NCBI GenBank assembly: GCA_951406725.2
Contig: OX597827.1
Location: 17,546,001 to 17,610,000 of the forward strand
Reading direction: 5' to 3'
DNA length: 64,000 nt
From: Octopus vulgaris
Taxonomy: Eukaryota
A program made the translations under genes and the position numbers. This document shows positions 1,361 to 61,247 of the stretch, piece after piece; positions within the stretch are counted from its first letter, which is position 1, and each line of letters opens with the position of its first letter. The notes beneath the pieces were generated by a model, which worked only from the letters and a program-made list of their open reading frames with translations, was not told the DNA's origin and did no database searches.

Positions 1361-1893
1361 TTACAACAGAAACTACACAATATACATAGCCGTGAAGCTT
1401 GGTGTTTGGCATTTATTTCGATATCATGATGTTTGATGATGCACACCTTCATATCCCTAAGTTTGCCAACTTGTAAACCTTGCTACACAGACAACATACC
1501 TCATTTTGCTTCACATTGTTAAAAAGATAAATCCCCTTTTTATAAATACACAATAGTCAATAGAATCGATTATTACAGACTCTTTTCTTCACTTTAGAGA
1601 TAAATTCCAAACATTCTGCTGAAGGCAAATAGTAGTTAAATTGTCATATATTATATTGAGGCACACACAGAAACTTATATGAAAACGTACATATTCACGT
1701 GTTTGTACACGAAGTAGCATAGCATTATTTTTTATTCCTATATATATATATATATATATATATACAGCTTCAAATAAACCTACACATGTTTCTACTGCAT
1801 TGATTAACAACCGTTGCAATTGCAACCTACTGTATGTATGTATTTATGTATGTATGTATGTATGTATGTATGTATGTATGTACGTATGTATGT

Positions 1894-2188
1894 AAAGCGA
1901 GACAGATGAGTGACAACCTGGCCACTGGTGGTGGTGTAACGCACCATGCTAATCATATCTGTCAGGCATGTGGAAGAGAGTGTAATTCGGTAGGAGGACT
2001 TAAACGACATGCAAAGGTACATGAAGCCCAGTTGCAACTACAGCCGGCTATTACCAGTAAAGGTTTTAGTTGCCAATTCTGTACAAGACATTGTAGATCT
2101 TTAGCTGGGCTAAAAAGTCACATTCAGCACCAGTAACAGTTAAGCTTCGTGCAATGGCCATACGCGATAACGAGGGGGCAGCCATCAT
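1894..2188 (+). mobile_element. 5'-truncated 3' end of an RTE-like LINE encoding two C2H2 zinc fingers
   Basis: ORF reads HICQACGRECNSVGGLKRHAKVH...FSCQFCTRHCRSLAGLKSHIQHQ*, then a short 3' UTR running into (TATG)n. It lies inside a TATG microsatellite and has no splice acceptor. Confidence 0.65.
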
Positions 2189-9980: not shown

Positions 9981-10907
<927 letters not shown>

Positions 10908-10940: not shown

Positions 10941-11320
10941 AAACAACAACTAGTAAGCAACCCAAGCAAGACTACGATATATTCGGAATGGCACTGAGAG
11001 GCTATTACAAAGATGATGATGACGACGATGATGAAGATGATGACCACCACCACGATAATAGTAAAAATAATAATAATAACGACACTAAGTATGGCGGATG
11101 GGAAAATAGATGGATAAGTGGTTCTGGCTCGACGACAGACAATCAAAAATCGAAAGCTGGTGCAGGAGACAAATCACGACAAATGACACCTGTGGAAGAA
11201 ACGTTGACGAAATCGTTGTATGCTAAGTTTGTGGCGTACGAGAAAATGGCCGAATCTTATGAATTGCTAGGATTAGGTGTGAAATTGAAACACATCCTTG
11301 TACATGATGCTCTTAACTAA
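10941..11320 (+). CDS. Terminal coding exon of paralogue 1, unknown His/Asp-rich protein
   Basis: Acceptor ttttgttttctag|AAAC (phase 1), about 125 open codons to TAA, AATAAA at ~11616. Two motifs are conserved with 21598-21666 and 27275-27633. Upstream exon not identified. Confidence 0.8.
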
Positions 11321-11430
11321 AAACCAAGGAGTAAGACAAGCGATTGACCAGATAAAATTCAGATGTCACTATATTCGTTAGGGAGACGTTTTGTGGTCTA
11401 TCTATCTATCTATCTATCTATCTATATCTA

Positions 11431-11464
<34 letters not shown>

Positions 11465-11487
11465 ATTGACTAATCAGTATTTTTCTG

Positions 11488-11540
<53 letters not shown>

Positions 11541-11886
11541 TTATCTATCTATCAGTTAATCCATATTTTAAAACTCATTTGAATAATATAAACGTAATTG
11601 CCACTGCAATTCTGAAATAAAAAAAATATATATAGTTTCCCAATTTATTTCTTTAGTTTAATTTTTTATTTTGTGTTTGTGTTCTCTGTTTATTTTTCTA
11701 ATTATTTTCTGTGTACGAGTGTATACGTCAGTGTATGCGCATGTAGTGTAGGTGGTTCAGGGGTTACAAAGATTTATTTTCTTTCCTTTCTGAAAATTTC
11801 CATATAAGACAGCAATCGATGGTCAGAGTAAATCGTTTGCATATATTTCAGGGAATAGTTAATACATAGATTCATTTCCTGTTTAA

Positions 11887-11932
<46 letters not shown>

Positions 11933-12020
11933 GTGTGTGTGTGTGTGTGTGTATGTATTATGTATATGTATATGTATCTGTGTCTTTGTATGTATATGAA
12001 CATTTATATATATACACACG

Positions 12021-12100
<80 letters not shown>

Positions 12101-12905
12101 TATGTATATCAACATATATATATATATATATATACATATGTATATCTACATATATATATATATATATACATATATATATTTATATATATGTGTGTGTGCG
12201 TGTGTGTGTGTGTATATATATATATATACGTGTGTCTGTATGTGTGCTTATGTCCTTTCGTCAATATGCATGTATGTATTATATATTTGTTGGAATGAAT
12301 GTATTTGCGTGTATATGTGGTTATTAGTTCAGTTTTTAATTATCGTGTGTATATTTGTGTGTGTGCGTGTGTGTGTATGTGTGGGTGTGCGCGTGTTTGT
12401 ATGTGTAAACAAAGAAAAAGTGTGTCTGTGTGTGAGAGAGAGAGAGAGTGGATAGAGAATGAGAGAGGTAAAAGAAATTACTATGTTCGCTATTCAAGAT
12501 GGAAGACATCTTAGTGTTAGTATTCACCCTGTCTCAGCAAATAGTGTTGGGTACTCATGCACTCGCGATTACATACAGATACCATCTCGGTTCGCCTACA
12601 CTGGATTTTGCGTAACATACATTAGATACAAGAGCTGGAGAGCATGCATGTCTGTGTGTAGCAGAAGGACATGTCAAAACTGTCATTTTATTTAATGCTT
12701 TCTAGAAAATAAAAAGGGAAGTGGACTTTGGCAGGATTTGAACGCAAAGCGCAGACAACCGTAATGATTATCGTAAAATATTCAATACGATTCTGTAGCA
12801 ATCAACACCTTTATGTATGTGTGTGTATGTGCATATATATATATGTGTGTGTGTGTGTGTGTTTGTGTGTGTGTTTATGTGTGTATATATATATATGTAT
12901 ATATA

Positions 12906-12967
<62 letters not shown>

Positions 12968-12994
12968 TCAATATGTATAAAGCTGAAATGCGAA

Positions 12995-13047
12995 AATGTT
13001 CTATTATAGCCGCGGGCCAACCAGACGAAAACTGAAAGAAGCCTGTC

Positions 13048-13081
<34 letters not shown>

Positions 13082-13290
13082 CTGTGTGTATTTCTGTCTG
13101 TGCTTGCTCCCTCACCATCGCTTTACAACCGATGTTGGTGTGCTTACATCCCTGTAACTAAGCGGTTCGACAAAAGAGCCTGACAGAATACATACTAGGC
13201 TTACAAAGAATAAGTCCTAGGGTCGATTTATTCGACTAAAGACGGTGCTCCAGCATGGCTGCAGTCAAAAGACTGAAACAAGTAAATGAC
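12995..13290 (+). mobile_element. SINE family A, 5'-truncated
   Basis: Body and tail match the consensus. Confidence 0.8.
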
Positions 13291-14025
13291 ATAGATAATT
13301 TTATAGCATCATCAAAGGAGCACAATGTACTCCGCTAATGAGAACTAATAAGGTTGAAACAATGCCCAATTCTTTGAATATTTGCTTTTGAGGTCAAAGT
13401 TCACTCCTAAATATATTGTCCTCTCAATTGCAGAAATAACACCATTTAATTGAAGCTTTTTTACTCAGTACATTTTATATGTTAGACTGTATTGCGTTTT
13501 TATATATTATTCATACTGCTCCGGTTTGTAATTGCCTGTATCCAAGATGATCTTTAAAAAGACACCATTAGTGCTATAGCCTTTCTCTCTCTCCCTCTCA
13601 TCCCCTAAAATCTGCTGATGAAGTACCTAACATGTCGAGTACACAGAAACATGGCCTAGTCGTAACACTAACTATTATTTACTCTATTTTATTTATTTTG
13701 GACTTCTTTAAACTTTTTCCACATCTTATCATGTAGACACACACCACAGTTCTGAGTCAGTTAACGTTATATTGGTAAGGCAATGTATAGATTATAATAT
13801 GTATAGACTATAATATGCATCAAGTTCCTCGAATTCAGATGAATTCATTAATCATCAACCTTCCGAGACAGCGTCGGTCTCATATTTCAGGGGAGGTATT
13901 TTATTGGTTTTACGTGTTACTTGTGCTTTTACTGTATGATTGTAAGAAACGAGCGTATTATTCTTTCTACTTCGATAACACTCGATGAAAAATGTTTGAC
14001 AAATATAGTCAGATTTCTGCATTTT

Positions 14026-14657
14026 TATTTCTTTATTGACCACAAGGGGCTACACACAAAGGGGACAAACAAGGACAGACAAACGGATTAAGTCGATTAG
14101 ATCCACCCCAGTGTGTAACTGGTACTTAATTTATCGACCCCGAAAGGATGAAAGGCAAAGTCGACCTCGGCGGAATTTGGACTCAGAACGTAACGGCAGA
14201 CGAAATCCCGCTAAGCATTCCGCCCGGCGAGCTAACGATTCTTAATTCTTTATTGCCAACAAGGGGATAAACGTAGAAGGGACAAACAAGGACAGACAAA
14301 AGGATAAAGTCGATTAGATCAACCCCAGTGCGTAACTGGTACTTATTTAATCGCCCCCGAAAGGATGGAAGTCAAAGTCGACCTCGGCGGAATTTGAACT
14401 CAAAACGTAAAGACAGACGAAATACCTATTTCTTTACTACCCACAAGGGGCTAAACACAGAGAGGACAAACAAGGACAGACAAACGGATTAAGTCGATTA
14501 GATCGACCCCAGCGCGCAACTGGTACTTAATTTATCGTCCCGGAAAGGATGAAAGGCAAAGTCGACCTCGGCGGAATTTGAACTCAGAACATAGCGGCAG
14601 ACGAAATACCGCTAAGCATTTCGCCCGGCGTGCTAACGTTTCTGGCAGCTAGCCGCC
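14026..14657 (-). mobile_element. SINE family C (head GGCGGCGAGCTGGCAGAA..CGTTAGCAC), with repeated ~180-210-bp internal units
   Basis: Three copies of the CCACAAGGGG...GTCGACCTCGGCGGAATTTG unit; homologous to 24665-25057 and 44489-44905. Confidence 0.85.
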
Positions 14658-14834
14658 TTGCATTCTTTGATTTCTGCATTCTCTCATCAAAATTTCATCC
14701 TGCAAATATCGTGTTTCGACAGCTCATTCTCCGACTTAATTCTAGTTGTCGTTTGGTTGTCCACAACCGTGCAGTCGTCTCCGACTGTCCAGAGCAATGT
14801 GTACCGATATTCAAGATGTAATTACCTCATAAAA

Positions 14835-15145
14835 AATCTCTAAAATGCGATGACAATGGACGTCAAGACCATCAGTGGCGGAATAAGATGCGGACGCTGG
14901 AACTGGATCGGCCACGTTCTCAGACAAGATCGAGCCGGCGATTGTATGGCGATACTAAAGAGGTAGCCTGCGGGGAAAAGATCAGCCCCCATCCCCGCGC
15001 CAAAACAACATGGTGAAGAACAATTGACAAGATAAGGAGACAGGAAGGGTGAAGTTGAAATGAGATCAGAATGCTTGTCGAAAATCAGAGTTGGTTGGAA
15101 AGATCGTGTTGCGGTTTTATGTGCCTCGTCACACACAGAGCTAAT
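14835..15145 (+). mobile_element. Decayed 3' end of an RTE-type LINE
   Basis: Plus frame IRCGRWNWIGHVLRQDR...P.GKR matches the RTE-family RRWRWIGHVLR...W.P.GKR..GRP motif; contains stops. Confidence 0.7.
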
Positions 15146-16507
15146 TATCTCATATATTTAGCAATAATTAGAAGTATATTATACAAAGCTTCCTTTGATT
15201 ATGGTAGTGAGAGCCTGGTTTTAAATTTTGGCTATTACCACAAGGTTGAGCGTTACGGAAGAATATCGCTTCCAGACGCGAACATGTCTCATGGCGACAA
15301 AAGAGGCGTTGTAGAGAATTAGATACATAAATTAATGTATTAAACCCGAATATTGTCCACATCAATCTCACCATTAATTATGGACGCACAAAAAACATAC
15401 TACTTTCCTCCTCATCCTCGTCCTCATATTACCCTTGCTCTCCCTCGTCCTCATATTATCCTTCCTCTCCCTCGTCGTCATTCAACTATTTCCCCGCCAC
15501 CTGCATTGAATAACTTATCTTGACTATTAGAAAAAATTCGATGCAAATTTATGACCTTCACATAAAAGCTACATTTTAAAATTATTTTCAAATATTTTAC
15601 AAGTGTAAATGCAATTAAGAATTCAGCTCACATCTACTTTCACTATCTCGTTGGGGAACCGAAATTTGCATATTCTATCAATTTTGTGCGCATACATGAT
15701 TAAAAATTATAGAAAGTAACCAAGGAGGTGTTGTATAAAACATTTTAATAAAGATTTGTTTGATCAGTCCGATAGATTGTGAAAACAGCTATAATGAACT
15801 ATTCTGAATTGTAAAATAAGAAAATAAATCGCAAATGTGTAAATTATAATGTCGCAAAAAAAATAGAAACCTTTGACTTTACGGCGTGTCAGATACAGTG
15901 TATTCTTTCTAGCTTGCAGTAATTTTCTGGCTAACAGCACACGTGAAGACGGGTAATCATACAAGCGTGCATACGCTTATATAAAAATGTGTGTGTGAAT
16001 CTCTGTTGAGTATCAGCATGGTGACTGATCGTGTATAAATGTATGTTTATATTATATATATATGTATTTATGTATCTTTGCACGTAATGTATGTATGAAT
16101 GTATGTACGTATATATATAAATGTATGTACGTATATATTTTACCAAATATATACGTTTTATTTATTATTTTGCACATTACTTAATCATTGGTATATGTTT
16201 TTATCTTGTATTTAATTTTTTCTATGGGATGTAATTTTTTTTCTATATGATATAATTAAATATTTTCATTGCTGAATTGATAAAAGGTGTGGGGGGGTTC
16301 TAATTTATATATATATTTTATATTTTGTGAAATTTGATTTAGTATTTCTAAATTAAATTTTTCCCTGTAAGTTTGGAATAATATTTCCTAATATATAGAA
16401 ACTCTACAAGAAGTATTGAGTAATCTCTTCTCGTTGGTTCAAAATGCAGGAACATTCATATACATACATACATACATACATACATACATACATACATACA
16501 TACATAC

Positions 16508-17408
16508 ATTGATTGTCTTATTGAATAGATGAAATGTTGAATATCAAATATTAAGGGACTAGTATACTTTCTTGCATTAAAGCAGTCTTCAAGGTCCCAA
16601 GTTGTGACAGGAGTGTTTCAACTGTTGAAACACTCCTGTCACAACTTGGGACCTTGAAGACTGCTTTAATGCAAGAAAGTATACTAGTCCCTTAAAACAC
16701 TCCTGTCACAACATGGGACCTTGAAGACTGTTTTAATGCAAGAAAGTATACTAGTCCCTTAAAACACTCCTGTCACAACTTGGGACCTTGAAGACTGCTT
16801 TAATGCAAGAAAGTATACTAGTCTCTTAAAATACTGCTGTCACAACCTGCGACCTTGAAGACTGCTTTAATGCAAGGAAGTTTACTAGTCCCTTAAAACA
16901 CTCCTGTCACAACTTGGGACCTTGAAGACTGCTTTAATGCAAGAAAGTATACTAGTCTCTTAAAATACTGCTGTCACAACCTGCGACCTTGAAGACTGCT
17001 TTAATGCAAGGAAGTTTACTAGTCCCTTAAAACACTCCTGTCACAACTTGGGACCTTGAAGACTGCTTTAATGCAAGAAAGTATACTAGTCCCTTAAAAT
17101 ACTGCTGTCACAACCTGCGACCTTGAAGACTGCTTTAATGCAAGAAAGTATACTAGTCCCTTAAAACACTCCTGTCACAACCTGGGACCTTGAAGACTGC
17201 TTTAATGCAAGGAAGTTTACTAGTCCCTTAAAACACTCCTGTCACAACCTGGGACCTTGAAGACTGCTTTAATGCAAGGAAGTTTACTAGTCCCTTAAAA
17301 CACTCCTGTCACAACCTGGGACCTTGAAGACTGCTTTAATGCAAGAAAGTTTACTAGTCCCTTAATATTTTATATTCAATATTTTATCTATTCAATAAGA
17401 CAATCAAT
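16508..17408. mobile_element. Fold-back element (inverted arms centred at 16623) enclosing a tandem array
   Basis: 16508-16622 is the reverse complement of one 67-bp unit plus 17365-17408. Confidence 0.8.
16628..17364 (+). repeat. 11 x 67-bp tandem repeat, each unit with a hammerhead-like fold
   Basis: Unit AAACACTCCTGTCACAACTTGGGACCTTGAAGACTGCTTTAATGCAAGAAAGTATACTAGTCCCTTA; exactly 737 bp; two variants alternate in units 3-8. Confidence 0.9.
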
Positions 17409-17912
17409 ACTTCGTTTCATTTTATCATATATATATTATTTATACTATATATTCTATATTCTACATTAATATCATAAAGAATATAAATAAAACATAAAAA
17501 CAGAGTTGAATTTCTGAATAATATATATATCACACTCATATACATAATATATGCATATATATATATATATTAGAAAATTGAGGTAATCAGATTCATATTG
17601 TAGATATTTATTTATATTACATTTTACAATATATATCGAATGATATGATATATATGTAAAAATGTAATATAAATAAATATCTACAAATATGAACCATCTG
17701 ATGATACCTCAATTTTCTAATATATATATATATATGCATATATGTATGTATATGAGTGTGCATATATATATTATTCAAAGAAATTCAAGTTTTTATGTTT
17801 ATTTATATTCTTTATGATATTAATGTAGAATATAGAATATATAGTATAAATAATATATATATAAATGAAACGAAGTATTGATTGTCTTATTGAATAGATA
17901 AATATTGAATAT
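17372..17912. repeat. Imperfect ~540-bp AT-rich palindrome, centre ~17640
   Basis: Arms match as reverse complements with scattered small indels. Confidence 0.8.
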
Positions 17913-17941
17913 ATATATACACACTCATATACATACATATA

Positions 17942-17986
<45 letters not shown>

Positions 17987-18148
17987 AAGATCAACAAATA
18001 CCTTGTACCTCTTCAATCTCCTCCGCATGATGTATGTCCAAGTGCTTTCCCTGTCATCATTAGATATTTCAATAAATATTGCTAATCTTATCTATAATCG
18101 TAGCCAACGGATCTTAAGACAAATCCACTAGACTTTAACAGCAAAGAC

Positions 18149-18206
<58 letters not shown>

Positions 18207-18421
18207 TATTATCTTTAATATAAATCATCCTAACAGATAATGTGATATAGATTCGTTCCTTGAGTCATGTCGTAACTTCTACAGGTTAAAAATAGTATGA
18301 TATATATATACTCTTGTTTCGACTTCTTTCTGTTTTGTTTGCCCTTCCTAACACACACACAAACATACATATATACATATATCTATTATGTGTGTGTGTG
18401 TTTGTGTATGTATACATGTGA

Positions 18422-18469
<48 letters not shown>

Positions 18470-18512
18470 CTATTTATATATCTATATACATATATATATA
18501 TAAATATAAATA

Positions 18513-18549
<37 letters not shown>

Positions 18550-18561
<12 letters not shown>

Positions 18562-19037
18562 AAACAAGTCAAAAATAGAAAATGCTAAGATGATTTTATA
18601 GTGAATCTTTCAGTACCGGTTTCGGTCATTTTGAGACCTTTTCAACTGTAACGATTAAATAATTAAATTTAGAAAAATTAGAAGAAAAGTTTTTTTAAAA
18701 GAATATTTCTGTAGTAGTGTTCAGATATAAGTAGCATTCTGCCTTTCTCTGACTCCCTTGTTTGCACTTGTGTGTTCGAGGTCGAACACACAAGTGCAAA
18801 CAAGGGAGTCAGAGAAAGGCAGAATGCTACTTATATCTGAACACTACTACAGAAATATTCTTTTAAAAAAACTTTTCTTCTAATTTTTCTAAATTTAATT
18901 ATTTAATCGTTACAGTTGAAAAGGTCTCAAAATGACCGAAACCGGTACTGAAAGATTCACTATAAAATCATCTTAGCATTTTCTATTTTTGACTTGTTTT
19001 TTCATATATATCAACTCGTGTGTTCCTTTCCACCCTT

Positions 19038-19040
<3 letters not shown>
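18550..19040. mobile_element. Penelope-like pLTR fragment with an inverted duplication (perfect ~230-bp arms, centre 18780/18781)
   Basis: Perfect palindrome 18550-19011 with a 2-nt GG centre; homologous to 54683-54900; carries a hammerhead motif. Confidence 0.7.
18913..18950 (+). ncRNA. Minimal type I hammerhead ribozyme motif, U3-A8 variant (mirror copy at 18611-18648, minus strand)
   Basis: cag-TTGAAAA-ggtc tcaaaat gacc-GAAA-ccgg-TA-ctg: stems I and II pair, stem III is palindromic, GUA cleavage triplet. Confidence 0.6.
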
Positions 19041-19092
<52 letters not shown>

Positions 19093-19590
19093 TATAAGTA
19101 TAAATATATGACTAAGAACGAGAAAAAGAAAATGGTTACAGAACTCTACTTTGGGAAAAGAAAGACAGTTTTTGCTTCTTCTAATTAGAAGCTACAGGTT
19201 CCAATCGCCTTAAGACCATCTATTCATATTATTATATTAGAATAAAAGAGAAAATGAATTAAAATAAAGTAAATTAAATTAGTGTTTGATTTTATCACTT
19301 CTGGTAATTAATGCTTCATTTTGTGTTCAGTTGTAAAAGTAATTTAGCGAATTTAACATTAAACTGAAGTATTTATGAGGTATTAAATTTTTTATTAAAT
19401 TTTTACATAAGAAGGGTGACAGTGACTTCGAACTTTCAGCCTGGTAGCCTTCGTTGAACCGCTTATATGTGTGTGTATATCTGTGTGCATCTGTGAGTGC
19501 ATGTGTGTGTGTATGTTTGTGTATGCGTATTATCACACATACATCAGCTCATACACATTATTATGAATACATTATTATTATTATTATTAT

Positions 19591-19822
19591 TGGCACCTTG
19601 GGCAAGTGCCATCTACTATAGCCTCGGGACGACAAAAAGCTTTGTGAGTGGATATGGTAGACGGAAACTGAAAGAAGCCCGTCGTATATATATATACATA
19701 TATATATAGTGGCACCTTGGGCAAGTGTCTTCTACTATAGCCTCGGGCCGACCAAAGCCTTGTGAGTGGATTTGGTAGACGGAAACTGAAAGAAGCCCGA
19801 CGTATATATGTATATTTATATG

Positions 19823-19878
<56 letters not shown>

Positions 19879-19888
19879 TGTGTGTGCA

Positions 19889-19935
<47 letters not shown>

Positions 19936-20140
19936 GTGTGTGTTCGTGTTTGTCTCCCCAACATCGTCTGACAACCGATGCTGGTGTGTCTACGTCCCCG
20001 TAACTTAGCGGTTCGGCAATAGAGACCGATGGAATAGGCGGCTTACAAAGAATAAGTCCTTGGGTCGATTTGCTCGACTAAAGGCGGTGCTCCAGCATGG
20101 CCACAGCCAAATGACTGAAACGAGTAAAAGAGTAAAAGAG
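19591..20140 (+). mobile_element. SINE family A, headless, with a tandem partial duplication
   Basis: TGGCACCTTGGGCAAGTG...CGTCGTATA occurs twice (19591 and ~19710), followed by body and tail. Confidence 0.8.
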
Positions 20141-20477
20141 TATATAGCAGTTATGAACCTGCATTTGACATAAAATTTCTCGATGCCTCATATCAAGCTT
20201 CTTTAATCTTCTTTGTATATTTAACTATGTTCTGAAATTATCAACTTAGTGCTACGATATCTTCTGACATTGCAAGAAACGTTTGGTTGTACATTTTCTT
20301 CTAAAGTTTTCATCAGGTCGTTTAAAACAGCAGACGATATCGTTTCTTCTTCCATCTTAATCTTTGTGACATTCGCTGAATATGGATTACAAACCATTTG
20401 AAACCCCGGCTGCATTGTTCGTCTGCCTTTGTGGCAACCATTCAGTGATATATTGAATCACTAAAACAGATTGTATT

Positions 20478-20725
20478 TTCTCTTTTATCTGTTTCATTCA
20501 TTATGGTGTGGCAATGCTGGGGCACCGTCTTGCATTTTCGACCCCAATATTTATTTTTTTTTATTTTTGCCTGGTACTTATTCTATCAATCTCGTTTACC
20601 GAACTGCTAAGTGACGGACACGTGAGCACACCAACACTGGTCGATAAGTGGCGGTGGGGGACAAACACAGACACAAAACACACACATACATATACACATA
20701 CATACACACACACACATACACACGC

Positions 20726-20759
<34 letters not shown>

Positions 20760-20915
20760 GTGTATGTATGTATGTATATATATATGACAGGCTTCTTTCA
20801 GTTTCCACAAGGCTTTGGTCGGCCCAGAGCTATAGAAGAAGACACTTGCCGAAGGTGCCACAAAGTGGGACTGAACCCCAAACCATGTTGTTTGGAAATA
20901 AGCTTTTTACCACAA
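20478..20915 (-). mobile_element. SINE family A, diverged
   Basis: Diverged reverse-complement match. Confidence 0.7.
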
Positions 20916-21597
20916 GCTCAAATATTTATGATAAATTATAATTGGAATAACTGTTCGGAATAAGAGACTGATACAACAATTATTACTAATAATTTAATTC
21001 TTGTGTCGCTTTGTTTGTCTAAATCTTTCGAGGTGGTGTTCCAGTATGGCCGTAGTCCAATGCCATAAACAAGCTGAAGAAAAAAGATAAAGATAGAGAT
21101 TCATTAATAAATTGGTTGATGCTGCTTCAGGTACACTTGCGCCCCCCGAAAAGCTGGACATGGAGACCAACTTCGTTCGATCATGGGCGTCTTGGAGTCG
21201 GAACAACAAAACAACAGCAATAAACATGACACAGATTGCTGAACAACAACAAACATGACATAGTTTGCCATTTCCAGTGAGATATATACAAATCGGTTAA
21301 ATAACAATGATATATAAACGAGGACAAAAGCTCTGACATTTAAAATTGGCCTTTATTTCCTATACAGCTGAAACTATACTACACGTCATTAAGCAGTAAC
21401 TACTTATGGAATTTATATGGAGTAGAATTATTGTTCTACTTCGCAGAAGAATTGCCGGGTGCTAGTTTTTGTTTCTTTTCCTTTCCTCTTCCTTTTTTTC
21501 TTCTTTGTTGTTGGTTGCAAGCATACAGTAACCTGGAAAATGCTTATTTCATTTTATTTTATTTTATTTTATTTTATTTTAATTTTGCTTTCAACAG

Positions 21598-21666
21598 ATT
21601 CGTCGGGAAGGAAGCCGGAATATAAAATATTTTACATGGCCTTCAAAGCTGCTGGTCTTGGTCGCG
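21598..21666 (+). CDS. Internal exon of paralogue 2 (xSSGRKPEYKIFYMAFKAAGLGR)
   Basis: Long T-rich tract ending ttcaacag|, donor CG|gtaaga, 69 nt, phase 1/1 and in frame with 27275. KPEYKIFYMAFK aligns with KQDYDIFGMALR of paralogue 1. Confidence 0.75.
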
Positions 21667-21750
21667 GTAAGAATTGGAAGGAGCAAGATTAGAATCCATA
21701 GATTAGAATCGCAAATACTTTTCAACGTAGTAAACTTCGCTAAATGTATT

Positions 21751-22165
21751 GGATATTTTCGGTTTGAACGACATTTTTTTCTAGCGGTGTCATATGAAAT
21801 TGTCACCCATAATTACGACCCTAGTATCGATCTATTGAATTTCAATCTATTTTAGGGTTAGGGTTAGGGGTAGGGGGAAGGGTATGTTTTTTCTTCATAA
21901 ATGTAAATAAACCCAATCTGTTTCTTAAACGAGGGACATATTCATACGGCACAGAATGTTGCTTACCTCAATGGACGTCAGTGATTGGTTGAAATTGCAG
22001 AAACTGAAGAAAAAAACAACAAATATCTTACAAACTATAGAATTTTCTCAATAAAGCCAAGAGAAAAAGATGTTTTATAAACACATTCTACCAGTATACG
22101 AAGTTTAAAATTTTTTAGTTACCTAGAAGTTATGTTAAAAACTGCCGTTCAAACCGAAAAGATCC
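21751..22165 (-). mobile_element. Merlin-like non-autonomous DNA transposon (MITE)
   Basis: TIRs GGATCTTTTCGGTTTGAACGGCAGTTTT; 8-bp TSD aatgtatt/aatgtatc. Confidence 0.8.
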
Positions 22166-22270
22166 AATGTATCTTTAATTCATATAAGAATGTTAAACCA
22201 CGTGACAGATTGGACTTCAATGGATTCCAGGCTGTGGTAGAAAACAATCCTAAAATATTTCACCTGACTT

Positions 22271-23040
22271 AGGCGGTGAGCTGGCAGAGTCGTTAGCCCG
22301 CCGGACAAAACAGTAGAATTCTGGGATCTTTTCAGTTTGACCGGCAGTTTTTTTTAAAATAATTTCCACGTAACTAAACACTTTTAAACTTTGTATACTG
22401 GTAGAATGTGTTTATAAAATATCTTTTTCTCTTGGCATAATTGAGAAAATTCTATAGTTTGTAAGATATTTATTTTTTTTCCCTTCAATCTCTGCAATTT
22501 CAACCAATCAATGACGTCTATTGAGTTAAAAAGCATTCTGTGCCGTATGAATATGTCCCTCGTTTAAGAAACAGATTGGGTTTATTTACATTTGTGAAGA
22601 AAAAAATATACCCTTCCCCCACCCTAACTCTAACCCTAAAATAGATTGAAATTCAATAGATCGATACTAGGGTCGTAATTATGGGTGACAATTTCATATG
22701 ACACCGCTAGAAAAAAATGTCGTTCAAACCGAAAATATCCAATACATTTAGCGAAGTTTACTACGTTGAAAAGTATTTGCGATTCTAATCTATGGATTCT
22801 AATCTTGCTCCTTCCAATTCTTCCAATTTCATATGACACCGCTATAAAAAACTGCCGTTCAAACCGAAAAGATACTACTTCTATCCGGCTTTGCGTTCTG
22901 AGTTCAAATTTCGCCGACGTCGACTTTGCCTTTCATCTTTTCGGGATCGATAAAATAAGTACCTGCTGAGCACCGGGGTCGATGTAATTGACTTACCCCT
23001 TACTCCAACCTTGCTGGCCTTGTGCCAAAATTTTAAACCA
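22271..23040 (+). mobile_element. SINE family C interrupted by the MITE at 22324-22875
   Basis: Head AGGCGGTGAGCTGGCAGAGTCGTTAG before the MITE; body GTTCTGAGTTCAAATTTCGCCGACGTCGAC after it. Confidence 0.7.
22324..22875 (+). mobile_element. Merlin-like MITE with a captured 82-bp flank and a duplicated right end
   Basis: Same family as 36486-36907; 22741-22822 is the reverse complement of 21669-21750. Confidence 0.8.
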
Positions 23041-24195
23041 TCATCATTGCTATTGTTATTATTGTTATTTGTAAGGCGGGTGAGCTGGCAGAATCTTTAG
23101 CATGCCGGAGAAAATGGCTGAAACAAGTAGAAGATAAAAAATACGTGTGCGCGCGCGTGTGTGTGTGCGTGTGTGTGCTTATGTGTGTGCGTGTGTGTGC
23201 TTATGTGTGTGTGTGTGTGCGTGTGTGTGCTAGTGCATGTGTGTGCGTGTATGTGTGTGTGTGTATGTGTGTGTGTATGTGTGTATGTGTGTATGTGCGT
23301 GTATGTGTGTGCGTGTATGTGTGTGTGTATGTGTGTGTGTGTGTGTGTGTGTGTCCGTGTGTCCGTGTCTACTTAGAACGGTTGACGATGATACTGATAA
23401 CAGGGGTAGTAATGATTGCAGTGGAGTTGGTGGTGATTAAGAAGCTGTATTTGCGAAGGTGGCCTCGACGGTCATTGCGATAGAAACGGTTATTGTGTTG
23501 ATGCTAGCAGTATTGGTTAAAAACGTGACGCATTGTGAATACTTCTGTATAAGCTTCTTGGTTGTGCATCTGCGAGATAAAGAAATCATATTGCTTTTAT
23601 TTTACTTCATTCAAATTTTCTTGATATAATATGTGTCTCTATTGACAGAATGATGAATAAAATATTGAAAGAATTCCGCTGGGTTTGTTGTCTGAAACTC
23701 GCTGTTACATTCTGCAATTTTGATGTAGACAATGCAATTTCTTCTAGAATTCTGTATGAAGAAATATCATATGTTTTTCACTGTAGCCAAACGACTTGTA
23801 GAAGTATTATACAGCAATGCTAGTACATATGCTAGCGTATAATAATTATCACTTACGTGAGATCATAAGGTCATCACATGTAAAGCCAATAATACTGTCA
23901 GATGTATCAACAAATGGAGGAATACAACGACTACTTGTCTGTAATTCTACAAGTAGTTATCATTTTGCCATAAGATTTAACTAACGAGAGGTCCAACACC
24001 TGCAAAAAATAGTAGCCAAATCTCATTCAAATCGCGTCTTACTCTCTTAAAAAGAGCAAAACAAGAATAGGCTAAATATAGTCCCTATACACTATGTCTT
24101 AAATAAATTTAAGAAAGTCCTGTACCCTATGTCTTAAATAAATTTATGAAAAGATGGTCACGACTTGAATAGGATTGATTATGTATATGTTTTGT

Positions 24196-24498
24196 GGAGG
24201 CACATGGCTTAGTGGTTAGAGCAGCGGAGTCGCGGTCGAGGGATCGCGGGTTCGAATCTCAGACCGGGCGATGTGTGTGTTTATGAGCGAAATACCTAAG
24301 CTCCACGCGTCTCCGGCAGAAGGTAATAGCGAACTTCTGCTGACTCTTTCGCCACAACTTTCTCTCACTCTTTCCTCCTGCATCTTGCAGCTCACCTGCG
24401 ACGGACCGGTGTCCCGTCCAGGTGGGGAACCTATACGCCAAAGAAACCGGGAAACCGGCCCTTATGAGCCAGGTGTAGCTCGAGAAGGTACAAACAAT
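24196..24498 (+). mobile_element. tRNA-derived SINE family B (head GGAGGCACATGGCCTAGTGGTTAGAGCAGCGG)
   Basis: A box TGGCTTAGTGG, B box GGTTCGAATC; five near-identical copies in the window. Confidence 0.9.
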
Positions 24499-24664
24499 GT
24501 ATATGTTGTATCTGAGCCTAGCTACAATTTTACAGTGCGACATATAATCTGCATCAGGGGTATATGTGTTACATGAAGTGAAATGAAATTTAATTGACTG
24601 AAATTCTAAAACCGCATCAATATCGCATTTGGTAGGTGATATCAGTATGACGTAGTAAATAATA

Positions 24665-25057
24665 ATACTTTCTATTATAGGGACAAGGCCTGAAATTTGG
24701 GGGAGGGGGATAGCCTATTACCTCGACCCCAGTGTATAAGTGGCACTTAATTTATAGACCCTGAAAGGATGAAAGATAACGTCGACTTCGGCGGAAACTC
24801 AGAACGTAGCGTCGGGCGAAATACCTATTTCTTTACTATCCACAAGGATCCAAAAACAGAGAGGACAAACAACGACAGACAAACAGATTAAGTCGATTAT
24901 ATCGATCCCAGTGCGTAACTGGTACTTAATTTATCGAACCCCGAAAGGATGAAAGACAAAGTCGACCTCGGTGGAATTTGAACTGAGAACGTAACGGCAG
25001 ACGAAATACCGCTAAGCATTTCGCCCGCCGTGCTAACGATTCTGCTAGCTCGCCGCC
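24665..25057 (-). mobile_element. SINE family C, two internal units
   Basis: Homologous to 14026-14657. Confidence 0.85.
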
Positions 25058-26001
25058 TTAGTGTAGTAAATAGTAATACCACATGTGCTATGTATTATTA
25101 TGACATGTTGGAGACGACAGTTAAATGCGATATAGTTAATCAGAATACTAACAATTATCCAAACTGTGCCAACAAACGATTCATCTGTGAAACTCTTAGC
25201 AATGTCATATATATTAAACTGTAAATTTATCCGAAATCCATGGTCAAATTAGTGCTACATGTTCAAGACTGAACCAGTGCAATGTATAATGTAACAGTAC
25301 TACATGTACAAGGCTGTAACTAGACACCACCAGTTTATTACAAAGTACAGACCTAGACTCCGAGACAATATTTCACACACGGTGAACATGTCAATGAAAA
25401 CTTTTAATTGTGAGAAAAAGTGTGTGGAAACTATCTGAAAGTATCTATTAGTGAATATAAAGTAAAATATCGTGAACAGTTTTTCTATTTACTGTGTAAA
25501 TCACCTGCTGCAATATTGTTTACTAAAGACTTTAGATAACCCTTCCATCTATTTTTCTTTAACCTTTATCTCCACCACTTTATCTCTTTATTTGTTAATA
25601 TATTTATTTTTTCTTTAGCATTCTCTCTCCAATCTATCATCTGTTTAGTTCATTTTCCCTCCCCACCAGCTGATCGTCTGTTTTCTTCATTCTTTCTCCA
25701 TCCCCACCAACTATCGTCTGTTTTGGTCACCAACCTCCCCTTCAAGTTCTCGTCTGCTTTGTTGATTCACCTGTCTGACATTAAACAGAGCAACCACTTA
25801 TATGCTATTATATATATTTTATCCAGCAGAAATTATCTGCTAATATTGTTTAATCTAATTGAGGGACAGTGATATAACTATAAATACAGGGATAACTTTC
25901 AACTTTATCCATCATTCTTTTATTGGTTTGAAACTTATTCAATACTGCTCTCACTATGAACTCACTATGCGTAGTATTCTGTTTTCTCGCTGTCTCTGTA
26001 G

Positions 26002-26037
26002 TGACATCTGATGCGTTCAACTTTATAGGTGGATATG
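26002..26037 (+). CDS. Candidate 36-nt internal exon of paralogue 2 (VTSDAFNFIGGY)
   Basis: Acceptor ttctcgctgtctctgtag|, perfect donor ATG|gtaagt, phase 1/1, no stop, keeps frame between 21666 and 27275. Confidence 0.45.
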
Positions 26038-27113
26038 GTAAGTCACATATTGCGCTTTTCTAAATTTTATTTTGGATTCTGTCTGTGTCTATGGTAAGTT
26101 ATTCTTTTATGGCCAACTGTGTGTTTCTTTATGTGTCTCTCATAAGCATATATAATGCTTTGGTTTGTGCTTGTGTCTGCGTTTGTCTCTACCTCTGTCT
26201 CTCTTCACTTCCGCTCTCTACTTTCATTCATTCTTCTCTCCGCTTGTACATTCTATTTCATGTGGCTTCTTTCATTTTTCCTTCTTTTCATTTTATTTAT
26301 TATTATATATTTTTTTTCGCGAAATATTTTTTTAAAGATGAAGGATAAAAGGAACAAGAGAGAAAACATGAAAGTGGCAGAATAAGATAGAAAGTGAAGA
26401 TGGAGTCGAAAGACACGTAACAGAGCGGAAGTGTTTAATCTATTTTGCTCTAAGAAAATATCACAATGTGCTGTAGTTCACTGCGCTGTTTGCATTAACA
26501 AGACACTGAGAGCGAGAGTCTTATATTATAGATTAAGTGATTCATGCAAATGTGTCGTCCGGCAGACAAAATGGCGAACGTGTTACCTTTCAGTAAGAGA
26601 TGTGATGAAAGAGTTTTTCCACCTCTATGAGTTCATTCTTAAGGATAGCAATCTTTAACCCGAACAAATTAAACAAAAGTGTTGGTTCACACGAGACAGG
26701 TATACCGGTCGTATTCACCGTTATATTTTCGAAAAGAAATCTGAGAGCAACTGCTAGGTTGACAGCTTACGATTGTCCACCAAGAATCCTGGGTCTTACA
26801 CCGATTTCTCCAGATATTTCTGCTAGGAAAGTATCACTCCATGTTGCACCCCAGGTTAGTGACTTATTGCCCACGAAACGGGAAGTTTATGGTGTCATTT
26901 TTTTTACTGTCCTGTCAGTCTAAGTTTAATCATTGAAAATACAATGTAAAACTGGTTGTGTCTAAACCACGTTAACTAATAATATTTAGGTGGGTGAAGG
27001 TACATCGAGAGAAAAGCAGTTGCTTCACAGTTAGAATACGTAGACTCACAACGTATTTTGTGTCGTTCGCAGATCCGAAATTCAAACCTAACTGAAACAC
27101 AATTCACAGATAG

Positions 27114-27212
<99 letters not shown>

Positions 27213-27274
27213 TGTGTGTGTGTGTGTGTGTACGTTTAACATGAATTTAAATGTGCATCGTTTATTCGTTGCAG

Positions 27275-27633
27275 GTGGAGACAAAAAGTCGGTTAAACAC
27301 CCACATCATGACAACTTCTTCACAGATATCGGTCGAGATATCGGCAGGTTCTGGGGCGGTCTATTCAAACACAAAAAACCTCACCACGAAGATGACGATG
27401 CTGCTGAAAAAAAGTCAAGCTGGAAAGGAAGTCTTCCGAAATCATCAGACAGTCAAAATATGGAGGCCATTTTGACGAAATCTATGTATGCACAGTTCAA
27501 AGCTTATGCCATGATGGCGGATGCTTATAAATTACTTGGAAACAGTGTTAAACTGCAGAGAGAGGCGTTGATGGATATGAATGACTCTGGTCCTGCTGAA
27601 AATTCACCAAGACCCCCGGAATGGCATAGATAA
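27275..27633 (+). CDS. Terminal coding exon of paralogue 2, unknown His/Asp-rich protein
   Basis: Acceptor ttcgttgcag|GTGGAG (phase 1), open to TAA, AATAAA at ~27692 and 27721; 19/32 identity with paralogue 1 across the C-terminal motif. Confidence 0.82.
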
Positions 27634-27869
27634 TTTTTAGAACATTTAATCGATTACTAGAAATATACGCGAAGTTTTGAGACAAATATAAATAAAACTA
27701 AAATTGTATTGGAAATTGATAATAAACCATTAGGATAAGGAATGTGCCTCATAAAATATGTATTCCGCCTTTTTGTCTTTTATTATTTTTTTGCGGGTTT
27801 TATGAATATAGGTGAGCTTGGTTTCCTTTCATTAATCATGATGAATATAGACACATATATATTCAAAAT

Positions 27870-27937
<68 letters not shown>

Positions 27938-36470: not shown

Positions 36471-36485
36471 AATAGAGGAAATGTT

Positions 36486-36907
36486 GGATCTTTTCGGGTT
36501 GAACGGCAGTTTTTAACATAATTTCTAGGTAACTAAAAAATTATAAACTTCGTATACTGGTAGAATGTGTTTATAAAACATCTTTTTCTCTTGGCTTTAT
36601 TGAGAATATTCTATAGTTTGTAAGATATTTGTTGTTGTTTTTTCTTCAATCTCTGCAATTTCAACCAATCACTGACGTCTATTGAGCTAAAATGCATTCT
36701 GTGCCGTATGAATATGTCCCTCGTTTAAGAAACAGATTGGGTTTATTTACATTTGTGAAGAAAAATAGATATCCTCCCCCCATCCTAACCCTAACCCTAA
36801 CCCTAAAACAGATTGAAATGCAATAGATCGATTCTAGGGTCATAATTATGGGTGACAATTTCATATGACACTGCTAGAAAAAACTGCCGTTCAAACCGAA
36901 AAGATCC
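36486..36907 (+). mobile_element. Merlin-like MITE
   Basis: GG...CC TIRs of ~28 bp and a perfect 8-bp TSD gaaatgtt. Confidence 0.88.
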
Positions 36908-60838: not shown

Positions 60839-61247
60839 GGATCTTTTCGGTTTGAACGGCAGTTTTTAACATAATTTCTAGGTAACTAAAAGATTTTAAA
60901 CTTCGTATACTGGTAGAATGTGTTTATAAAACATCTTTTTCTCTTGGCTTTATTGAGAAAATTCTATAGTTTGTAAGATATTTGTTGCTTTTATCTTCAA
61001 TTTATGCAATTTCAACCAATCAATGAGGTCTATTGATGTGAAAACATTCTGTGCCGTATGAATATATCCCTCGTTTAAGAAATACATTGGGTTTATTTAC
61101 ATTTCTGAAGAAAAAAAGATACCTTTCCCCCCACCCCTAACCCTAAAACAGATTGAAATGCAATAGATCGATTCTAGGGTCATAATTATGGGTGACAATT
61201 TCATATGACACCACAAGAAAAAACTGCCGTTCAAACAGAAAAGATCC
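60839..61247 (+). mobile_element. Merlin-like MITE
   Basis: TIRs with a perfect 8-bp TSD taaaagtg. Confidence 0.88.

What the first reader, a model, noticed from the sequence alone, without database searches (positions are those of the whole stretch)
10941..27633. Tandem pair of paralogues defining an unrecognised His/Asp-rich protein family
Seen: two same-strand genes 16 kb apart share K-x-[DE]-Y-x-I-F-x-M-A-[LF]-[RK] near the N-terminus. Their C-termini VEETLTKSLYAKFVAYEKMAESYELLGLGVKL and MEAILTKSMYAQFKAYAMMADAYKLLGNSVKL are 19/32 identical. Between the motifs is a fast-diverging linker rich in Asp, His, Gly and Trp (DDDDDDDEDDDHHH; HPHH...PHHEDDD). Protein-level conservation amid unalignable DNA indicates purifying selection. 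I recognise no domain. Inference: lineage-specific, possibly secreted or structural proteins with an amphipathic helix and a metal- or pH-responsive His/Asp linker, as in cephalopod hard-tissue or gland proteins.
Basis: partly seen in the sequence, partly recalled or inferred. Interest (0 to 1): 0.8.

Follow-up and report, generated by a model that had tools for sequence, protein, structure and literature searches.

The report
Octopod-only secreted helix-bundle protein family
Two neighbouring octopus genes belong to an undescribed family of small, likely secreted proteins, found here only in octopuses and argonauts, whose shared 33-residue helix is predicted to bundle with copies of itself; the tissue and job are untested, and the family is not really histidine-rich.

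Summary
The paralogue pair is real. The two terminal exons share a C-terminal core (19/32 identical; alignment score above all 2000 shuffles; dN/dS about 0.17). Its 'shared N-terminal motif' for gene 2 lies at 21612, 4.3 kb upstream of that gene's ATG. Gene 2 has its own TATA box and signal-peptide exon (25956-26037), joined to 27275 in contigs of 3 of 4 runs laid. Both genes match existing 'uncharacterized' RefSeq models. Searches found ten family sequences in three subfamilies, the named ones all from Octopus or Argonauta. There is no Pfam hit, no specific fold match and no paper in the searches run. His is only 1-6% of the mature part, so 'His/Asp-rich' fits local tracts, not the family. 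Anatomy: signal peptide, short conserved aromatic/Gly peptide, disordered linker, one long helix. Four copies of the helix model as an antiparallel bundle (0.72 against control 0.01), and 11 of 12 invariant residues fall on one interface. Best reading: a secreted, self-assembling extracellular protein. A peptide precursor is the main rival. Tissue is unknown.

The parts
10941..11320 (+). Gene 1 (subfamily A) terminal coding exon, phase-1 acceptor, stop TAA 11318-11320. Its signal-peptide exon is not in the window.
   Evidence: Identical to residues 29-153 of O. sinensis XP_029645121 (P0007); residues 1-28 have no match in the window
10964..10999 (+).
11009..11083 (+). Gene 1 poly-Asp / His3 / poly-Asn tract, predicted disordered; also in the O. 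bimaculoides orthologue, absent from subfamily C
11192..11287 (+). Gene 1 conserved core (32 codons) within a predicted helix, residues 111-152, pLDDT 82-86
21598..21666 (+). Orphan exon-like segment (69 nt, phase 1-1, good acceptor, donor GCG|GTAAGA) carrying the second copy of the 12-mer at 21612-21647. It is not gene 2's N-terminus; possibly a relic of a third paralogue.
   Evidence: among the proteins retrieved it appears only in the fused O. vulgaris prediction CAI9732543
21669..22822 (.). Inverted duplication (21669-22165 against 22822-22324, 93%) made of a ~420-bp MITE-like repeat plus ~80 bp of flank, starting 2 bp after the orphan segment's donor site
   Evidence: other copies of the repeat at 36484-36907 and 60839-61247
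25879..25886 (+). TATA box (TATAAATA) 77 nt upstream of gene 2's ATG
   Evidence: sequence; function inferred
25956..26037 (+). Gene 2 (subfamily B) first coding exon: signal-peptide-like leader (20 residues, predicted cut after S-D-A) plus the start of the conserved N-terminal peptide; donor ATG|GTAAGT, phase 1
   Evidence: (28/28 to XP_029645122)
26038..27274 (+). Gene 2 intron (GT...AG, 1237 nt)
   Evidence: contigs of runs X4, X5, X17 join across it (loose ends match 26007-26036)
27275..27633 (+). Gene 2 terminal coding exon; the two exons give a 146-residue protein that differs from O. sinensis XP_029645122 at one residue (V34D)
27316..27369 (+). Subfamily-B amphipathic helix, residues 42-59, hydrophobic moment 0.72, between KK pairs at 31-32 and 61-62
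27460..27558 (+). Gene 2 conserved core, residues 90-122, with 12 residues invariant in all 10 family sequences; predicted antiparallel self-association
27634..27763 (+). Gene 2 3' UTR; AATAAA at 27691 and 27721; contigs end at 27748 (3 runs) and 27763 (1 run)

Best explanation
The window holds two tandem paralogues of an octopod-restricted family of small, likely secreted proteins whose invariant 33-residue helix is predicted to pack against copies of itself in an antiparallel bundle, likely making them a self-assembling component of an extracellular secretion or matrix. Shown: the paralogy, purifying selection on the core, gene 2's two-exon spliced structure, and three subfamilies (A, B, C), with B and C present in both Octopus and Argonauta. 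Inferred: signal peptidase removes about 20 residues. Predicted: the core helices associate, and the invariant Tyr/Phe/Met/Ala/Gly/Val stripe forms one interface while a more variable Ala/Ser/Met face forms a second. Inferred: because that stripe is the same in all paralogues, A, B and C products could form mixed bundles. The disordered arms (acidic or His tracts, short aromatic/Gly motifs, and in B a lipid-type amphipathic helix) would project from the bundle and supply paralogue-specific contacts. The tissue and the final material are untested.
For: Leader: hydrophobic stretch (best 10-residue Kyte-Doolittle mean 2.4-3.5) followed by a small-x-Ala site in 7 of 7 sequences examined, and no membrane-spanning stretch after it (best 19-residue mean 0.13-0.77). 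Splicing and 3' end of gene 2. The core is strongly conserved at every depth: 30/33 to O. bimaculoides, 23/33 and 27/33 to Argonauta, 19/33 between A and B, against 11/58 for the A-B linker. AlphaFold gives one long confident helix and disorder elsewhere for both genes. Four copies of residues 84-133 scored ipSAE 0.72 (runs 0.72, 0.74, 0.68) against a best control of 0.01 of 3; runs agree in at least 97% of contacts; partner pLDDT at least 79. The tool's mark was reached by 21 of 30 microbial proteins solved as pairs and 0 of 23 single chains; in eukaryotes by 17 of 29 pairs (animals 7 of 16; only 1 of 7 with no older solved relative) and 0 of 30 single chains. The model was built without the alignment, yet 11 of the 12 invariant core residues fall in one predicted interface (19 of 33 positions; hypergeometric P=0.003). 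There is no Cys in the mature part of any of the 10. Clustered, taxon-restricted gene families tied to materials are a known pattern in coleoids (PMC9068888, passages).
Against: The bundle is a model only. I asked for four copies, whereas the calibration held two, and a pass may come from memory of solved coiled coils. Only 3 of 12 invariant residues lie on the second interface, so a dimer is better supported than a tetramer, and the conserved stripe could instead bind another protein. Any conserved one-sided helix will tend to put its stripe in a modelled interface, so the P value is generous. A helix of about 45 residues is short for a fibre protein. No SignalP-type predictor was run. No tissue or proteomic evidence was found. 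A conserved N-terminal peptide followed by K-K or K-R in 6 of 7 B/C sequences is better explained by precursor processing. Gene 1 transcription was not tested here; it rests on the RefSeq model.
Confidence: 0.45

Rival explanations
1. The proteins are precursors of signalling peptides. After signal-peptide removal a convertase would cut at K-K or K-R (residues 31-32) and release a conserved ten-residue peptide of the form F-[ND]-F-[LIM]-G-G-Y-[DG]-G-D; the helical core would act as a sorting or granule-packing (granin-like) domain or as a second hormone.
For: The peptide directly follows the predicted signal cut and is 9/11 (B) and 11/12 (C) identical between Octopus and Argonauta, while the B segment right after it is 5/10. 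A dibasic pair follows it in 6 of 7 B/C sequences that cover the region.
Against: The Argonauta B orthologue lacks the adjacent dibasic pair, and subfamily A lacks the peptide in this form. There is no conserved amidation signal (one G-R-K in 1 of 10) and no repeated peptide. The best-conserved part across the three subfamilies is the long helix, not the peptide. No Pfam hormone family was hit.
Confidence: 0.22
2. The proteins are membrane- or lipid-active components of a defensive or digestive secretion (mucus, saliva, haemolymph). The subfamily-B helix at residues 42-59 would be released at the flanking KK pairs or act in place.
For: Hydrophobic moment 0.72 in gene 2 and 0.66 in both its O. 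bimaculoides and Argonauta orthologues; KK at 31-32 and 61-62 in gene 2 and its O. bimaculoides orthologue.
Against: The helix is absent from subfamilies A and C (best moments 0.36-0.39). It carries acidic as well as basic residues, and the proteins are near neutral or acidic (net +3 to -9), unlike most host-defence peptides (own knowledge). The invariant core is not explained.
Confidence: 0.13
3. One reading: His/Asp-rich linkers act as pH- or metal-triggered switches in a hard tissue, as in squid beak proteins.
For: Gene 1 has a poly-Asp/His3 tract kept in O. bimaculoides, and gene 2 has two H-P-H-H or P-H-H-E-D motifs largely kept in O. bimaculoides.
Against: His is 0.9-6.3% and is not conserved in position across subfamilies; 0 of 10 sequences have GHGxY or GAGFA, the motifs that drive beak-protein phase separation (PMC6884462, passages). 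Beak proteins were not found in O. bimaculoides (PMC9068888, passages).
Confidence: 0.1
4. The core helix is a binding motif for another secreted or cell-surface protein (an inhibitor or ligand that folds on binding) and does not self-associate in vivo.
For: The invariant residues form one stripe of a single helix, as in many bind-and-fold motifs (own knowledge); the rest is predicted disordered.
Against: The self-association model scored far above controls (0.72 against 0.01, with the calibration limits given under the best explanation). No candidate partner was found.
Confidence: 0.1

Closest known systems
Existing database entries for these genes: O. sinensis XP_029645121 ('transmembrane protein DDB_G0274347-like') and XP_029645122 (LOC115219157); O. 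bimaculoides XP_014772147 (LOC106870533), XP_014791054/5 (LOC106884277), A0A0L8I3V7; O. sinensis LOC115230163; Argonauta hians GAB1604397 and a second A. hians protein
   Same: The same genes or their orthologues and paralogues.
   Different: None carries a tested function, a Pfam domain or a family name. The 'transmembrane' label fails a hydropathy test.
Squid histidine-rich beak proteins (HBP-1, HBP-2)
   Same: Small, extracellular, largely disordered, taxon-restricted, clustered genes (PMC9068888 and PMC6884462, passages).
   Different: HBPs depend on GHGxY repeats and were found only in decapodiforms; this family has no such repeat, little His, one long conserved helix, and was found only in octopods.
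Suckerins and reflectins
   Same: Clustered coleoid-restricted families (PMC9068888, passages).
   Different: No modular Gly/Tyr and Ala/His repeats and no repeated reflectin motif (motifs recalled; regex test).
Secreted coiled-coil material proteins (aculeate silk fibroins, whelk egg-capsule proteins, mantis ootheca proteins; all recalled, no call)
   Same: Works like them in the best reading: signal peptide, paralogue set, helix bundle with small residues in the core.
   Different: No sequence match was found. The helix is about 45 residues, against the 200 or more recalled for those proteins. Fibre formation is unshown.
obimac0019980 of O. bimaculoides (bioRxiv 10.1101/2022.06.11.495763, sections 12 and 30 read)
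   Same: Described as uncharacterized, signal peptide, mostly disordered, two helices, no Foldseek match, strong O. sinensis orthologue: the same general anatomy as gene 2.
   Different: No sequence or LOC id is given, so identity could not be tested. It marks immature optic-lobe neurons and has a weak Sepia hit. Many octopus orphan genes would fit this description.

Membership tests
Squid histidine-rich beak proteins | Tandem GHGxY (and GAGFA) repeats | tested here: not met
   0 of 10 sequences; motifs from PMC6884462
Squid histidine-rich beak proteins | High His content | tested here: not met
   0.9-6.3% after the first 20 residues
Squid histidine-rich beak proteins | Expression in the buccal mass | not testable with these tools
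   run tissues are not given
Suckerins | Modular Gly/Tyr/Leu and Ala/Thr/His repeats (recalled) | tested here: not met
   at most two G-G-[LY] per protein, no repeat architecture
Reflectins | Repeated [MF]-D-x5-M-D motif (recalled) | tested here: not met
   0 of 10
Neuropeptide / peptide-hormone precursors | N-terminal signal peptide | tested here: met
   hydropathy and small-x-Ala heuristic in 7 of 7 sequences examined; no dedicated predictor run
Neuropeptide / peptide-hormone precursors | Conserved short peptide bounded by a dibasic site | tested here: inconclusive
   6 of 7 B/C sequences; absent in Argonauta B and in subfamily A
Neuropeptide / peptide-hormone precursors | Amidation signal or repeated peptide copies | tested here: not met
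   one unconserved G-R-K in 1 of 10; many precursors lack these, so this is weak
Neuropeptide / peptide-hormone precursors | Neural or endocrine expression and processed peptide detected | not testable with these tools
   no tissue labels; no peptidome available
Secreted coiled-coil material proteins | Helix that self-associates with heptad packing | tested here: inconclusive
   model only: 0.72 against control 0.01, diagonal contacts at 94, 101, 108, 115, 122; four-copy job outside the calibration
Secreted coiled-coil material proteins | Long (200 residues or more) coiled-coil domain (recalled) | tested here: not met
   helix of 42-46 residues
Secreted coiled-coil material proteins | Forms fibres or films | not testable with these tools
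   needs bench work
Cysteine-rich venom or defence peptides | Disulfide framework in the mature protein | tested here: not met
   no Cys after residue 20 in 10 of 10
Transposable-element proteins | TE domain or dispersed repeat copies | tested here: not met
   no Pfam family at E<=0.01 for 10 of 10; the profile finds only the three exons in the window; spliced with a 3' end after AATAAA
RefSeq label 'transmembrane protein DDB_G0274347-like' (gene 1) | Membrane-spanning segment after the leader | tested here: not met
   best 19-residue Kyte-Doolittle mean 0.77
Any solved fold | Specific structural match | tested here: inconclusive
   Foldseek best E=5.7; VIA-align best Z=5.2, all generic long helices; low-confidence model

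The most novel reading that the evidence does not exclude
The A, B and C paralogues are co-secreted subunits that zip together through their shared helix into mixed bundles and build an extracellular material peculiar to octopods (for example sucker cuticle, hatchling skin tufts or egg-string cement). That would make this the octopus counterpart of the squid-only suckerin and beak-protein clusters, using a helix bundle rather than beta-sheet or coacervate chemistry.
Probability: 0.2. Interest if true: 0.62.

Novelty: new member of a known kind. Interest (0 to 1): 0.36.

Why it matters
Squids have named, clustered, lineage-restricted material proteins (suckerins, beak proteins) that were not found in O. 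bimaculoides (PMC9068888). An octopod-restricted cluster kept from Octopus to Argonauta, with an invariant helix, is a concrete candidate for an octopus-side equivalent or, on the rival reading, for a new peptide-signal family. Both are directly testable with tissue RNA-seq, peptidomics and a 50-residue synthetic core. The finding also corrects a fused public gene prediction. It does not reveal a new kind of mechanism: small secreted orphan families are common in animal genomes.

Tried and rejected
1. The segment could splice in frame to 27275, but 3 of 3 loose ends show the 26037 exon directly upstream, and that exon's leader is conserved to Argonauta (13/20).
2. Fused 293-residue model CAI9732543: rejected on the stop codon, the TATA box, the conserved second leader and separate RefSeq models. 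Only the last 30 letters of each loose end were shown, and the fused model also uses those letters, so alone does not exclude it.
3. Search for gene 1's first exon in the window: none.
4. More copies in the window: none beyond the three exons; next hit E=0.17, intron-like AT-rich DNA.
5. Relatives outside octopods: the profile search of 1.84 billion representatives gave 5 hits at E<=0.001, three from octopods and two long repeat proteins (one dinoflagellate, one unnamed) that share only a short L-T-K-S-L-Y-A word in tandem repeats; these two were dropped as chance. The word-index profile search gave 7 hits of 2753 candidates, all octopod; it covered lengths 16-296 only.
6. Pfam, PDB sequences, Foldseek, VIA-align and ESM Atlas: nothing specific; a blank shows neither novelty nor absence.
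7. Literature: 0 relevant papers for accessions, LOC ids or motifs.
8. Supplements searched without a hit: PMC9712504 (3 files, 1 not searchable), PMC6635378, PMC10142993 (ink proteome), PMC10138644 (skin mucus; ids and tryptic peptides), PMC9699675, PMC12607849 (one 393-character file). PMC11431876's supplement could not be read. These may use other identifiers, so the blanks say nothing on tissue.
9. No holder run is on record as RNA; four same-study runs held next to none of the words, which is no evidence.
10. Earlier scan notes: nothing for this place or these sequences; the word search returned unrelated bacterial and phage items.
11. No whole genome was held, so copy number and gene order outside the window are open.


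Full report
Setting. The window is animal DNA rich in microsatellites and short repeats. Named database proteins place it in the common-octopus group: gene 1's last exon is identical to O. sinensis XP_029645121, and gene 2 carries Val at residue 34, as does the O. vulgaris prediction CAI9732543. No whole genome was held.

Checking the observation. Two + strand terminal exons exist at 10941-11320 and 27275-27633, both after polypyrimidine-AG acceptors in phase 1. Their cores are 19/32 identical, BLASTP E=5e-11, and the alignment score of 107 exceeds all 2000 shuffles (maximum 63). Over 33 codons pN is 0.25 and pS 0.68 (dN 0.30, dS 1.78, ratio about 0.17; dS is near saturation, so the ratio is rough). 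The core DNA aligns at 67%. The pair and the purifying selection are therefore real.

The N-terminal motif is misplaced. The pattern occurs at 10964 and at 21612 only. A scan for ATG, hydrophobic stretch and phase-1 donor found an exon at 25956-26037 with the best donor score in the scan. It is 28/28 identical to the start of O. sinensis XP_029645122 and 23/28 to O. bimaculoides XP_014772147, and a TATA box lies 77 nt upstream. Four public runs were laid on 27235-27885. Each gave one contig that starts at 27274 and ends at 27748 or 27763, shortly after AATAAA at 27721. Three of the four, from three studies, have loose 5' ends that match 26007-26036 (X5 and X17 30/30, X4 the last 26 of 30); the fourth contig has only 5 letters before the exon. 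None shows the 21666 end. The runs are not on record as RNA, but a join across a GT-AG intron is what a spliced transcript gives. Only 30 letters of each loose end are shown, so this call fixes the junction but not the 5' end.

The orphan segment. 21598-21666 has good splice signals and keeps frame. Its 12-mer is 6/12 identical to gene 1's, with three synonymous differences among the six; 1 of 40 shuffled 12-mers found as good a hit in the window. Against this, the family profile misses it, MAFFT puts it on the core helix instead, and among the proteins retrieved it appears only in the fused prediction CAI9732543. An inverted duplication built on a MITE-like repeat begins 2 bp after its donor site. 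A relic of a third paralogue broken by that element is plausible (about 40%, my estimate); chance or an exon of something else remain.

The family. Three word-index searches, one full profile search and cluster look-ups gave ten sequences: subfamily A (gene 1 and its O. bimaculoides orthologue), B (gene 2; O. bimaculoides; Argonauta hians) and C (O. sinensis LOC115230163, O. bimaculoides LOC106884277 X1 and X2, A. hians, and one unnamed Logan protein). The tree separates A from B+C with full support (100/100); B has 92/99, below the tool's bar. B and C proteins lie on sequences of the same length in O. bimaculoides (60,576,134) and in A. hians (30,661,994), which suggests linkage older than the Octopus-Argonauta split (inference). 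The only other profile hits were two long repeat proteins sharing a seven-residue word; I dropped them. I do not know how well squid and cuttlefish are covered by these libraries, so 'octopod-restricted' holds at this sensitivity only.

Anatomy. All full-length members examined (7 of 7) start with a hydrophobic leader ending in small-x-Ala and have no later membrane-spanning stretch; no dedicated predictor was run. In B and C a short aromatic/Gly peptide follows, 9/11 and 11/12 identical between Octopus and Argonauta, and is followed by K-K or K-R in 6 of 7. The linker is variable. B alone has a strongly amphipathic 18-residue helix (moment 0.66-0.72). The core has 12 invariant residues in 10 of 10 sequences. 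His is 0.9-6.3% and there is no mature Cys. AlphaFold gives low overall confidence (mean pLDDT 54 and 59) with one confident helix, residues 86-131 in gene 2's orthologue and 111-152 in gene 1's. Fold searches returned only generic long helices. Pfam, PDB sequences and the ESM Atlas gave nothing usable.

Mechanism. Four copies of residues 84-133 folded as an antiparallel bundle with score 0.72 (0.72, 0.74, 0.68) against a best control of 0.01 among 3; contacts agree in at least 97% and partner pLDDT is at least 79. The tool's mark was reached by 21 of 30 microbial proteins solved as pairs and 0 of 23 single chains, and in eukaryotes by 17 of 29 pairs (animals 7 of 16; 1 of 7 without an older solved relative) and 0 of 30 single chains. 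This job, with four copies of a predicted chain, lies outside that calibration. The alignment was not used in the model. One interface holds 11 of the 12 invariant residues (19 of 33 positions, P=0.003); the other holds 3 of 12. So conservation supports one helix-helix interface well and the tetramer less well. I take the most likely working to be secretion followed by self-association, possibly among paralogues, with disordered arms giving paralogue-specific contacts in an extracellular secretion or matrix (0.45).

Comparison with known families. Squid beak proteins depend on GHGxY repeats (PMC6884462, passages) and, with suckerins, were not found in O. bimaculoides (PMC9068888, passages). 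This family fails the beak-protein, suckerin and reflectin motif tests (the last two motifs recalled). It resembles them only as a clustered, taxon-restricted family. It may work like secreted coiled-coil material proteins of other animals (recalled) but has a much shorter helix and no sequence link. A preprint describes an uncharacterized O. bimaculoides gene, obimac0019980, with similar general anatomy that marks immature optic-lobe neurons (10.1101/2022.06.11.495763, passages and sections 12 and 30); without its sequence I cannot say whether it belongs here. If it did, the precursor or signalling reading would gain. PMC6425005 and PMC9635652 (passages) gave nothing on this family.

Print status. 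Five full-text searches for accessions, LOC ids and motifs of this family found no relevant paper. Supplements of six papers gave no hit and one could not be read. The library lacks most subscription papers, including the 2015 octopus genome paper, and bioRxiv supplements are closed, so tissue tables that name these genes under other ids may exist.

Verdict. A real, undescribed small family with a clear conserved helix, already present in databases as uncharacterized genes. Novelty: new member of a known kind (clustered, taxon-restricted cephalopod gene families). Interest 0.36.

Noticed in passing
window 10941-27633 (database entry CAI9732543, P0010): The O. vulgaris prediction fuses gene 1 (cut before its stop), the orphan segment, the last 13 codons of gene 2's first exon and gene 2's last exon into one 293-residue protein; probably an annotation error.
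   Followed up: partly
P0005 and P0006 (O. bimaculoides LOC106884277 X1, X2): The two 'isoforms' share their first 36 residues and then differ at scattered positions (88% identical overall), which looks like duplicated terminal exons or two merged genes rather than ordinary splicing.
   Followed up: no
window 21751-22167, 22324-22740, 36484-36907, 60839-61247: A ~420-bp MITE-like repeat with terminal inverted repeats and internal TAACCC-type hexamers; the two copies at 21.7-22.8 kb face each other and include ~80 bp of duplicated flank.
   Followed up: partly
window 16560-17365: An 11-copy, 67-bp minisatellite (16628-17365) preceded by an inverted copy of its unit, giving a fold-back junction near 16620.
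   Followed up: no
window 18560-19010: A long near-perfect palindrome (arms of roughly 220 bp by eye) centred near 18780; may be real or an assembly artefact.
   Followed up: no
window 1804-2136 (+): A short frame with two C2H2-type zinc-finger patterns (recognised by eye), perhaps the end of a retroelement or a relic exon.
   Followed up: no
window 9983-10439 and 10807-10907: (AAT)152 and (AAT)34 arrays; the second ends about 30 bp before gene 1's splice acceptor.
   Followed up: no
subfamily C C-terminal tail (P0005, P0006, P0015, P0016): A 30-residue Gly/Phe/Asn tail is 23/30 identical between Octopus and Argonauta and echoes the N-terminal F-N-F-L-G peptide; a second conserved element not present in the window's two genes.
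   Followed up: partly
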